Of a stretch of DNA of 64,000 bases, positions 20,701-25,672 are shown one piece after another; the stretch's first letter is position 1, and every line of letters starts with the position of its first letter. The DNA is from Flaccisagitta enflata (lineage: Eukaryota): assembly GCA_965153355.1 (NCBI GenBank), contig OZ231126.1, forward strand, positions 26,908,001-26,972,000. The letters are read 5' to 3'. The notes beneath the pieces are model-generated. The model was not told the origin of the DNA. It saw only the letters and a list, made by a program, of their open reading frames with translations, and did not search any database. The position numbers and the translations under genes are program-made.

Positions 20701-23700
20701 TATCTTGTACTTGGACTTATCAATGTCAAAGATTTCAGAACTGAATATGTCAACTGCTGTTGAGTTTTTTTCTGTCTTGCCATTTCTGAATTCCATCCTC
20801 AAAATCTGAATGAGCAAGTATCCTGGATGTTTGGATATAGTCAACTTTTCCATATAGGGCAACTTTGGACAGTGTGGATTGGTAGTTGAACAATTTCCAC
20901 AGCTTCTTCCATCAAACTGAGAGTGTATAGCAAAGTGTTGATTTATCAAGTGTTGCAGAGGTATGGCTGTCCTTGATGCAGGAATGGCTACCTTCAGGAT
21001 TGTGTCAGTGCTGGGGAATGATGGAGGATATTGTTGACATGTTGGGCATGGTGACACTCGATCATTCACTCTGAATCTATACTGATGGTCAACAGAGAAC
21101 ACGAACAACTGACTGGGGCAATGCTCAAGTAAAAAGCTGAAGAGCTCCACTGTATCATACTGGGCGCCTGAATTTAGTGGCTGTCCTGTTGCTTGAGCTA
21201 AGAGATGTCTTACTTGCAAGGCACTTGTCACTTCATTGTGCCCTGTTTTGGAGAGTACTTTACTAAGCTCATTGAGGATGGGTGAAGCATTTTTCCACTC
21301 TGACAACTGGGAAAGAAATTCTGGAATGTGGCGAAGTAACTGAAGGATGCTGTTAAGAGAACACAAGTTCCTATGTACCTTATCATTCCTAAGAAGCAAC
21401 TGAGGTAACTGTAACTGACTCATTTTTAGGCCGAGAAAGTAAAAAACAGAAACAAATCATAAAGAAGTAAATAGAAATTGGAAAGTCAGTCAGTCAGTCA
21501 AATTTGAATTCCAAGAGAATCAAGATTTCCACACTATTTTTTCTGACCTGTGGAGTTACAGGATTCACACTCTGAGATTTTGCTATCAGAGATACCCAAA
21601 TAAACCACACAATTTTTTCCGGCCTGTGGAGATCAAGAATCACTAAGGTTCAAATATCAGAAATGAAAAAAAGAGAAGAAAATATAAAAGAAATAAACAA
21701 AAGTTTCTCCGGTTTGGCCCTGAAAAGGGCCTTTGGGGTGGCACTGTTACAAGAATAGAATAGTAAAATAATAGAATAGAATAAAAACCCTTTTTAAAGA
21801 TGTTACAACTCAAATTTCAAGATTCAAGAAATCCACACTATTTTTTCTGACCTGTGGAGTTACAGGATTCACACTCTGAGATTTTGCTATCAGAGATACC
21901 CAAATAAACCACACTATTTTTTCCGGCCTGTGGAGTATCAGGAATCTATTCAAATTGTAACATTTGAAAAAAGGGGTGTTTTTTTTTTTTAATGACCTGT
22001 CAAGTACAGGAATCTTACTCTGAGATCTAGCCGTCAGAGCACAAAGACACTTTGCTCTTGGATGCATCCCCTTTTATAGGGACCAATTTCTCCTCCTCCT
22101 CCCCCTCCTCCTCATATTGCATCATCCTATGAGGAAAGGCCTGGGCAAGTCCATTATTGCATAATGCATGATGAGGAGGAAGGGGAGGAGGAGGAAAATT
22201 TTGCACTATATAAGGGGAGGCTTCCACAGGCAGATGAGATTTTGTGCTGCAGAGCAAATCTCATTCCTGAACCACCACAGGTAATAAAATATTTATTCTC
22301 GTTTCTTAACAGGTCTGAAAGGTAAAGTCTTATGCTAAATGACATGAAATGCTATCTCAGAAAACGTTTGTCTTAGAGCTTTCTAAGTGTCACCAAAAGT
22401 TCCATTTGACAACTATATGTAAATTGATGTTAGACATGTCACAACATAAGATGACATAGATGGTTCCAGAGTTATGATGGAAAAACTGAAACTCACCATA
22501 ATATGCAAAGGAGGAAAATTATGTACACTTGAGTTTCTCACTCTTACTGAAACTCTTGCTTATTCTTTCACTTATCAGGTTAGAAAGGAAAAGTGACTTT
22601 GACAATTCCATGTTACATGACATGAAATGCTATCTCAAAAACGGTTTGTTGCACAGCTTTCTAAGTGTCACCAAAAGTTCCATTTGACAACTAGATGTAA
22701 GTTGATGTTAGACATGTCGCAACATAAGATGACATGGATGGTTCCAGAGTTATGATGGGAAAACCAAAACTCACCATAATATGCAAATGACATGAAATGC
22801 TATCTCAGAAACCGTTTGTCGTACAGCTTTCTAAGTGTCACCAAAAGTTCCATTTGACAACCAGATGTAAGTTGATGTTAGACATGTCGCAATATAAGAT
22901 GACATGGATGGTTCTTGAGTTATGATGGAAAAACCGAAAATCACCATAATATGCAAATGACATGAAATGCTATCTCAGAAACGGTTTGTTGTACAGCTTT
23001 CTAAGTGTCACCAAAAGTTCCATTTGACAACTAGATGTAAGTTGATGTTAGACATGTCGCAACATAAGATGACATGGATGGTTCCAGAGTTATGATGGAA
23101 AAACCAAAACTCACCATAATATGCAAATGACATGAAATGCTATCTCAGAAACCGTTTGTCTTACAGCTTTCTAAGTGTCACCAAAAGTTCCATTTGACAA
23201 CTAGATGTAAGTTGATGTTAGACATGTCGCAACATAAGATGACATGGATGGTTCTAGAGTTATGATGGAAAAACCGAAACTCACCATAATATGCAAATGA
23301 CATGAAATGCTATCTCAGAAACGGTTTGTTGTACAGCTTTCTAAGTGTCACCAAAAGTTCCATTTGACAACTAGATGTAAGTTGATGTTAGACAGGTCGC
23401 AACATAAGATGACCTAAATAGTTCCAGAGTTATGATGGAAAAACTGAAAGACACCATAATATGCAAATGAGGTTTGTGGTAAAGCCCCATGAGATGATGC
23501 AATATTTCGTTTCATTGCATCAGCCCTATTGACTGATGCAATATCTCATATCATTGCATCAGCCCTATGAGATGATGCAATATTTCATTTTATTGCATCA
23601 GTCCTGTAGAATGATGCAATATATTGTTTTTTTGCATCAGCCCAATAGGATGATGCAACATTTCATTTTATTGCATCAGCCCCAAAGGATGATGTAATAT

Positions 23701-25672: not shown

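What the first reader, a model, noticed from the sequence alone, without database searches (positions are those of the whole stretch)
23458..24037. 39-bp palindromic array of ~24 C/EBP-ATF (ATF4/AARE-type) sites, bracketed by a perfect 15-bp octamer-containing inverted repeat
Seen: each unit has TGATGCAAT-N10-ATTGCATCA. By my count 19 sites are exact and 24 fit TGATGxAAx. Most variants (TGATGTAAT, TGATGCAAA, TGATGCAAC, TGATGTAAC) stay within that consensus, while the 11-bp linker varies more freely. The array is enclosed by AATATGCAAATGAGG (23458-23472) and its exact reverse complement (24023-24037). Extra sites at 22116 and 24363. Established: TGATGCAAT is the C/EBP-ATF response element bound by ATF4-C/EBP in the integrated stress response, and ATGCAAAT is the POU octamer. 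Inference: a homotypic stress enhancer or ATF4 sink. Alternatively it could form serial ssDNA/RNA hairpins used in rolling-circle replication or as structured small-RNA precursors.
Basis: partly seen in the sequence, partly recalled or inferred. Interest (0 to 1): 0.8.

Follow-up and report, generated by a model that had tools for sequence, protein, structure and literature searches.

The report
Stress-factor site array inside rolling-circle transposon
The repeat is part of an intact rolling-circle transposon, sitting upstream of its transposase gene, and its pattern of change suggests it collects a host stress-response transcription factor to switch the transposon on, though binding itself has not been shown.

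Summary
The counts are right: 19 exact and 24 relaxed sites, and an exact 15-bp inverted repeat. The context was missed. The array lies inside an 11.6-kb Helentron (12941-24531, minus strand) with an intact 2,686-aa protease-Rep-helicase-endonuclease ORF, 1.4 kb upstream of a TATA box that has its own C/EBP-ATF and C/EBP sites. 13 of 18 close RepHel copies carry such an array, as 39-bp or 29-bp units, and 68 of 71 short non-autonomous copies keep at least one site. The 15-bp bracket is the remnant of a ~170-bp arm that also borders unrelated arrays, so it is not a dedicated octamer frame. Conservation follows the 9-bp motif, not base pairing: variant fraction 0.027 at fixed motif positions, 0.147 at paired non-motif positions, 0.140 at unpaired ones. 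Consensus-allowed changes outnumber context-matched disallowed ones (21 vs 3 units; about 9-13 vs 3 origins). Best reading: a C/EBP-ATF-type enhancer for the transposase, like heat-shock-element arrays in nematode Helitrons. Binding, induction and a host ATF4 gene were not shown. In passing: a histone-type stem-loop sits in the transposase leader.

The parts
12941..24531 (-). Autonomous Helentron, about 11.6 kb (family A here)
   Evidence: ORF domains; homology to other copies stops at both ends; 570 exact 3' ends genome-wide
24512..24531 (-). 5' end: TT, 5' subterminal inverted repeat (24528-24518) and nested IR forming a 7-bp hairpin
24456..24497 (-). GTCC-type microsatellite of the 5' module
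   Evidence: HINE structure in PMC7492417 passages
24358..24400 (.). Degenerate 1.5-unit seed of the 29-bp palindromic unit, the same segment that short HINEs carry
24038..24205 (-). Degenerate duplicate of the element's 5' module
   Evidence: sequence; similarity read by eye against HINE type B
24023..24037 (-). 15-bp remnant of the inverted ~170-bp arm (contains the octamer-like word)
23493..24015 (.). Array of 12 full 39-bp units plus degenerate tail; each unit has two head-to-head CARE-type 9-mers, 10-bp spacer, 11-bp linker
22332..23472 (+). Six forward copies of the ~170-bp arm (five in tandem, 22617-23470); most other copies have two
22060..22260 (.). Imperfect inverted repeat with two outward-facing TATA-like boxes (22071-22078 minus, towards the ORF; 22207-22214 plus), a CARE site (22116-22124) and a C/EBP-type site (22156-22165)
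   Evidence: promoter function inferred
21716..21731 (-). Histone-mRNA-type stem-loop in the putative 5' leader, about 300 nt before the ATG
   Evidence: Rfam RF00032 28.7 bits, below gathering 34; near-identical to the host H3 3' stem-loop
13363..21423 (-). Intact ORF, 2,686 aa from the first Met: UCH protease, Helitron Rep (HUH and Tyr motifs), PIF1 helicase, C-terminal endonuclease
12964..12974 (-). 3' subterminal inverted repeat, perfect 11-bp match to the 5' one
12946..12960 (-). 3' terminal hairpin followed by T-rich end

Best explanation
The array is the internal tandem repeat of a Helentron subfamily (shown). It grew by tandem amplification of a short palindromic seed in the 5' subterminal region (inferred from the seed at 24358 and in HINEs); one lineage uses the 29-bp unit, the other a 39-bp unit that is 10 bp, about one helical turn, longer (shown). 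Its 9-bp halves are kept as binding sites for a host C/EBP-class bZIP dimer, most likely ATF4 with C/EBP (inferred from substitution patterns). Bound factor would act 0.5-1.4 kb upstream of the TATA box, together with the TATA-proximal CARE and C/EBP sites, to raise RepHel transcription when the factor is abundant, as in the integrated stress response (inferred). Copies with more sites would then mobilise more under stress, which would select for the array. That the array is transposon-internal is near certain; the confidence given is for the enhancer mechanism.
For: Position: upstream of TATA and an intact ORF. Family-wide: 13 of 18 RepHel copies at 91-100% identity have an array, 4 break off before its place, 1 has a single unit. 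39-bp units (122 of 133 kept, 86 distinct): variant fraction 0.027 at fixed CARE positions, 0.099 at the two free ones, 0.147 at paired non-motif and 0.140 at unpaired positions; with all 133 units 0.046/0.107/0.158. In the self-complementary TGCA core, where sequence context is identical, consensus-allowed changes occur in 11 and 10 distinct units and disallowed ones in 1 and 2. 29-bp units: fixed 0.028 vs other 0.106. HINEs: 12 variants in 54 motif positions vs 85 in 142 others, p=2.7e-4; the lone unpaired third site is about as conserved as the paired ones (4 in 18). CARE, C/EBP site and TATA unchanged in 14 of 14 intact promoters. Three sister-subfamily copies have perfect C/EBP palindromes before a TATA-like box (2, 3, 1 sites; 0.07-0.18 expected) and three have 5-7 CCAAT boxes there. 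Host encodes C/EBP-type bZIPs. Consensus sources: PMC5175342 and PMC13095666 passages. Precedent: PMC6927752 passages.
Against: No binding or induction data. No ATF4 orthologue among 18 and 19 bZIP hits (searches are lower bounds). Units are not independent: the TGCA test drops to about 9-13 vs 3 origins, p 0.07-0.01, and is uninformative in 29-bp units (0, 1, 1, 0). A CARE-breaking change at motif position 2 occurs in 6 distinct units, 4 origins. Units and HINEs were picked by likeness to a consensus, which inflates conservation. The promoters are 89-96% alike overall, so 14 of 14 is weak on its own. Non-coding HINEs have no gene to switch on, yet keep the motif. 10 of 13 sister-subfamily and 7 of 7 distant copies have no perfect C/EBP palindrome before the ORF and none of the 20 has a CARE array. 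The host ASNS gene showed no proximal CARE. The one raw RNA run laid 0 reads (no test).
Confidence: 0.5

Rival explanations
1. The sites recruit a host C/EBP-class bZIP for the transposition step itself (opening chromatin near the 5' end, or repair of the donor or target), not for transcription. The array is an amplified version of that cis signal.
For: 68 of 71 complete short HINEs and 13 of 19 longer or incomplete ones keep at least one site, across three internal subtypes, next to the 5' module; motifs identical between HINE types A and B while the adjacent spacer diverges. Precedent: Drosophila IRBP18/Xrp1 in repair after P-element excision (PMC7776569, PMC6946401 passages).
Against: Short tandem units with the sister subfamily's 5' end lack the motif, so it is not general Helentron chemistry. 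Retention in HINEs may only reflect inheritance of the 5' segment or a deletion hotspot at the palindrome. A site also sits 38 bp from the TATA box.
Confidence: 0.2
2. Neutral by-product: a palindromic seed is amplified by slippage during rolling-circle copying, and template switching between the arms keeps them alike; the match to CARE is a coincidence.
For: Central tandem repeats are normal in HINEs (PMC4067079, PMC7492417 passages). Array length runs from 1 unit to 22. The same arm borders unrelated 67-bp and 91-bp arrays. Independent-origin counts are small.
Against: Paired positions outside the motif vary as much as unpaired ones (0.147 vs 0.140); the pair stacked on the stem is broken in 18 of 86 distinct units with 1 compensation; only 3 units carry both mirror changes; the context-matched asymmetry favours consensus-allowed changes. 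An unpaired exact site stands beside the TATA box.
Confidence: 0.2
3. The units work as serial single-strand hairpins in rolling-circle intermediates or as small-RNA precursors.
For: Each unit folds at about -8.2 kcal/mol, z -3.7 to -5.5; the element is a rolling-circle transposon; one RNA-library contig runs from the arm into the array start (strand unknown).
Against: Pairing outside the 9-mer is not conserved and compensation is rare; mirror changes rise on both arms, which a hairpin on one strand does not predict; 19 or so CT-type HINEs keep one unpaired half-site; no Rfam family reaches its gathering score.
Confidence: 0.07
4. A host stress enhancer or ATF4 sink maintained for host benefit.
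For: At least 570 related ends genome-wide, most sampled ones with sites (81 of 90), could affect neighbouring genes as in Caenorhabditis.
Against: This copy is part of a young, intact, multi-copy transposon; no host gene was tied to it; about 300-500 array sites in all is small for a sink.
Confidence: 0.03

Closest known systems
Helentrons and their non-autonomous HINE/DINE-1 partners (PMC4067079; PMC7492417; passages seen)
   Same: Rep-helicase fused to a C-terminal endonuclease, 11-bp subTIRs with nested 5' IR, GTCC microsatellite, 3' stem-loop, T-rich ends, internal tandem repeats.
   Different: Here the repeat unit is a pair of transcription-factor consensus sites, sits in the autonomous element upstream of the promoter, and shows motif-level constraint; the N-terminal protease is UCH-type. 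The passages seen assign no such role to central repeats.
HSE-rich Helitrons of Caenorhabditis (PMC6927752; passages seen)
   Same: Dense clusters of a stress-factor site in a rolling-circle transposon, present in autonomous and non-autonomous copies; proposed to drive stress-induced transposase.
   Different: Different factor class (bZIP CARE vs HSF-1), Helentron rather than Helitron, palindromic paired sites; there binding and induction are shown, here only inferred.
[quoted passage not shown]
   Same: Exact match to the cited 9-bp consensus and to the 10-bp HOMER form on both halves of the unit.
   Different: Host CAREs in the passage seen are mostly single sites near genes; here 10-39 clustered sites per copy inside a transposon.
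Drosophila IRBP18/Xrp1 at P elements (PMC7776569, PMC6946401; passages seen; the primary paper only as a cited title)
   Same: A host C/EBP-class bZIP heterodimer engaged with a DNA transposon.
   Different: Cut-and-paste element, terminal sites, role in repair; any likeness of that site to CARE is recalled and was not checked.

Membership tests
Helentron | Rep (HUH) plus PIF1 helicase in one ORF | tested here: met
   PF14214 E 3.8e-15, PF05970 E 5.9e-25; catalytic-looking motifs located (motif labels recalled)
Helentron | C-terminal AP-type endonuclease fused to the helicase | tested here: met
   PF03372 E 2.6e-4 at aa 2529-2689, 21.2 bits, slightly under the curated cut-off 24.5; GDFN and SDH motifs present
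Helentron | subTIRs of 11 bp or more, 5' IR, 3' stem-loop | tested here: met
Helentron | T-rich flanks, no target-site duplication, confirmed by empty sites | tested here: inconclusive
   T-rich ends seen in many copies; no empty site examined
Helentron | Non-autonomous partners with the same ends and microsatellite | tested here: met
   71 complete short copies among 90 of 570 3' ends examined
CARE/AARE enhancer | Match to TGATGxAAx consensus | tested here: met
CARE/AARE enhancer | Constraint on fixed positions, tolerance at free positions | tested here: met
   non-independence weakens it, and the core test is uninformative in 29-bp units
CARE/AARE enhancer | Host has both ATF4 and a C/EBP partner | tested here: inconclusive
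   C/EBP-type found; no ATF4 among hits, L181 ambiguous
CARE/AARE enhancer | Factor binding and stress-dependent activation | not testable with these tools
   no ChIP or stress data; one search gave no test
POU octamer-bracketed module | Octamer kept on both sides and specific to this array | tested here: not met
   right tip missing or broken in 6 of 16 loci; same arm beside unrelated arrays
MITE / TIR transposon | Array plus arms moves alone, with its own target duplication | tested here: not met
   every array locus examined is embedded in Helentron 5' sequence
Structured small-RNA precursor | Conserved pairing with compensation; Rfam match; phased small RNAs | tested here: not met
   small-RNA data not available

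The most novel reading that the evidence does not exclude
This Helentron lineage is wired to the host integrated stress response: amplified ATF4-C/EBP sites switch on RepHel, the same sites are needed in cis by its hundreds of HINEs and spread stress-responsive cassettes through the genome, and a captured histone stem-loop in the 5' leader adds SLBP-dependent control, with sister subfamilies swapping in other site clusters (C/EBP, CCAAT) before the same TATA-stem-loop cassette.
Probability: 0.25. Interest if true: 0.78.

Novelty: new variant of a known kind. Interest (0 to 1): 0.52.

Why it matters
It would be a second case, after heat-shock elements in nematodes, of a rolling-circle transposon amplifying a host stress-factor site to time its own activity, and with a different pathway. 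It offers a sequence-level argument that Helentron 'central repeats', usually treated as passengers or satellite seeds, can be selected regulatory arrays. The natural series (1 to 22 units, 29- vs 39-bp spacing, sister promoters with other sites) is a ready-made reporter panel. No paper joining Helitrons with ATF4 or with stem-loop binding turned up in the held library, which lacks most subscription papers.

Tried and rejected
Metagenome scan for the HINE-type palindrome plus third site: 0 hits. Earlier findings: three look-ups, nothing. Rfam on 21400-24700: only sub-threshold miRNA hits from generic hairpins, rejected; gathering-level scan of 18 sister loci: 0. Host-target control with ASNS: a start was found at one of three gene regions, no proximal CARE; a 70-bp array with a CARE-compatible word lies 2.3-3 kb upstream but has single, non-palindromic words and may be chance; inconclusive. 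ATF4 orthologue: not found. RNA: raw polyA run X5 laid 0 reads from about 6% of the run, no test; contigs of X1-X3 (one study, 90-99% alike) cover the ORF start and leader up to about 21695 and an arm-array junction, but give no strand or start and may be DNA. MITE reading of arm-array-arm rejected. Octamer as a functional bracket rejected as specific. Middles of the 91-bp foldback elements: no DNA-transposase ORF recognised, no profile scan run. L013 gave a spurious promoter hit and L041 a disrupted one; L009, L012 and L016 did not reach the promoter. No protein structure or homologue-database search was run. Supplements of papers were not opened; supplementary element tables of PMC4067079 could hold related repeats.

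Full report
Observation. The counts hold: 19 exact and 24 relaxed sites in 23458-24037, and an exact 15-bp inverted repeat. TRF gives 12.7 copies of 39 bp. Outside the element the window has 1 exact site in 52.3 kb. The left 15-mer, however, is the end of a 170-bp unit repeated five times just upstream.

Context. A 2,697-codon open frame lies at 13363-21456 on the minus strand, Met at 21423. Pfam finds UCH, Helitron_like_N, PIF1 and a C-terminal Exo_endo_phos domain, the last just under its cut-off. The 5' end at 24531 has TT, an 11-bp subTIR with a nested hairpin and a GTCC microsatellite; the 3' end at 12941 has the matching subTIR and a hairpin. These are the features described for Helentrons and HINEs (PMC4067079 and PMC7492417, passages). 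The window is G000:C1:26908001-26972000 in a 794-Mb, 9-contig animal-type genome.

Family survey. A Rep search scored 116 of 282 candidates: 18 places at 91-100% identity, a large group near 75% and one near 56%. Of the 18, 13 have an array, 4 break off before its place, and 1 has a single unit and an interrupted promoter. All 16 array loci examined lie in the same 5' sequence. Units are 39 bp or 29 bp; the short form lacks the 10-bp spacer and is a perfect 18-bp palindrome. The two forms split on a tree of the promoter region, 5 vs 9 rows, support 100/99, midpoint root only. I fetched 13 copies of the 75% group and 7 of the 56% group; none has a CARE array.

The bracket. In 13 of 16 loci the right side carries a 127-176-bp inverted arm; the window keeps 15 bp, two loci none; in four of the 13 the octamer tip is cut. 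The same arm lies beside 91-bp arrays (8 loci), 67-bp arrays (3 loci) and in a foldback with 3.1-kb arms. It is a shared module of unknown origin.

Non-autonomous copies. The 3' end occurs exactly 570 times. I examined 90 (from C1 and the start of C2; of the 100 listed, 2 already held and the last 8 were left out). 71 are complete within 490 bp, and 68 of them have at least one site; 13 of the other 19 do. Types A (31) and B (17) carry 1.5 units of the 29-bp palindrome; the CT type (22) mostly keeps a single unpaired half-site. The window has the same seed, degenerate, at 24358. I infer that arrays grew from it.

What is conserved. From 16 loci I extracted 133 39-bp and 112 29-bp units; 122 and 103 passed a stricter filter, 86 and 48 distinct. 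In 39-bp units the variant fraction is 0.027 at fixed CARE positions, 0.099 at free ones, 0.147 at positions that pair but lie outside the motif, 0.140 at unpaired ones. The contrast holds within G/C and within A/T positions. The core TGCA is self-complementary, so it gives a context-matched test: a binding site predicts C>T on the left half and G>A on the right; a hairpin on one strand predicts one of these plus one disallowed change; neutrality predicts all four equal. Observed distinct units: 11 and 10 allowed, 1 and 2 disallowed. Clustered into origins this is about 9-13 vs 3, p 0.07-0.01. The 29-bp units give 0, 1, 1, 0 and say nothing on this. A disallowed change at motif position 2 has 4 origins. 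In HINEs (24 of 31 type A, 13 of 17 type B used) motif positions have 12 variants in 54 against 85 in 142. All these sets were chosen by likeness to a consensus and are related by descent, so the p-values are optimistic. The consensus itself comes from PMC5175342 and PMC13095666 (passages); both halves of the array unit fit the 10-bp form.

Promoter. A TATA box at 22071-22078 faces the ORF, with an exact CARE 38 bp upstream and a C/EBP-type site at 22156; all three are unchanged in 14 of 14 intact copies, in a region 89-96% alike. The array lies 1.4 kb from the TATA here and 0.5-1.1 kb in other copies. Among 13 sister copies, three have perfect C/EBP palindromes and three have 5-7 CCAAT boxes before a TATA-like box; the rest have neither. 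Site clusters before the RepHel TATA are thus recurrent, with different factors. The host has C/EBP-type bZIPs; ATF4 was not found. RNA data gave no test, nor did the ASNS control.

Mechanism. Shown: transposon-internal array, two unit forms, motif-level constraint, promoter-like context. Inferred: binding by a C/EBP-class dimer, enhancer action on RepHel, stress timing (0.5). Rivals: cis role in transposition, as suggested by retention in HINEs and the IRBP18/Xrp1 precedent (0.2); neutral amplification with arm homogenisation (0.2); hairpins or small RNA (0.07; folds well, but pairing is not conserved); host enhancer or sink (0.03).

Comparison. It is a member of the Helentrons; it works, most likely, like the HSE-rich Helitrons of Caenorhabditis, where HSF-1 binding and transposase induction are reported (PMC6927752, passages). 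Nine literature searches listed no paper on ATF4 or C/EBP site arrays in Helitrons; I saw only listings for papers not named above.

Side finding. A histone-type stem-loop lies in the sense strand of the leader. It is in 15 family-A loci searched and 7 of 13 sister copies, 26-55 nt before the estimated start there, with one compensated pair, and absent from 254 kb of control DNA. Genome-wide the pattern has 92 hits; 22 of the first 30 lie directly upstream of a RepHel N-terminus. It nearly equals the host H3 3' stem-loop but lacks the A-rich downstream word of the host genes. This may be the more surprising feature and deserves its own study.

Verdict. Real, non-random, transposon-internal; a new variant of a known kind. 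Interest 0.52.

Noticed in passing
window 21716-21731 (-); L053, L054, L056, L057, L059, L062, L063; L238-L267: Histone-mRNA-type stem-loop in the 5' leader of RepHel across two subfamilies, near-identical to the host H3 3' stem-loop (L268), with a compensated pair and without the host downstream word; 22 of the first 30 of 92 genome hits precede a RepHel ORF. Possible SLBP control of transposase.
   Followed up: partly
L240, L243-L246, L257, L259, L260: The other 8 of those 30 stem-loop hits belong to another repeat; in 7 they follow a small ORF with a hydrophobic N-terminus.
   Followed up: no
L051, L052, L055; L054, L059, L063; L053, L056-L058: Sister Helentrons have different site clusters before the TATA box: C/EBP palindromes, CCAAT boxes (histone-promoter-like), or purine-rich repeats.
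   Followed up: partly
window 22060-22260: Inverted-repeat promoter region with two outward-facing TATA-like boxes; the plus-strand one would read into the arms and array.
   Followed up: partly
L031-L038, L071-L074, L199-L202: Long foldback-like elements (14-25 kb) with 91-bp or 67-bp arrays rich in a short word that also forms half of the Helentron 3' hairpin; they share the ~170-bp arm; some hold retroelement-like ORFs inside.
   Followed up: partly
L053, L056, L057, L058, L062: Head-to-tail arrays (116-135 bp, up to 29 copies) of the sister subfamily's 5' end module.
   Followed up: no
window 19223-20078: 69-bp coding repeats give a charged low-complexity linker between the protease and Rep domains; copy number differs among copies.
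   Followed up: no
L064-L070: The distant (56%) Helentrons appear to have a second ORF just upstream of RepHel.
   Followed up: no
L236 (G000:C5, upstream of an asparagine synthetase gene): 70-bp tandem array, 13 copies, 11 with a CARE-compatible word, 2.3-3 kb upstream of the start.
   Followed up: partly
L268 (G000:C7:39.32-39.53 Mb): Tandem cluster of core histone genes H3, H4, H2A, H2B with a period of about 5 kb.
   Followed up: partly
window 38379-38913, 39152-40434, 45524-45895, 49707-52233: Other tandem arrays (12, 13, 19, 162-282 bp), several beside GTCC/GTCT microsatellites, probably other non-autonomous elements.
   Followed up: no
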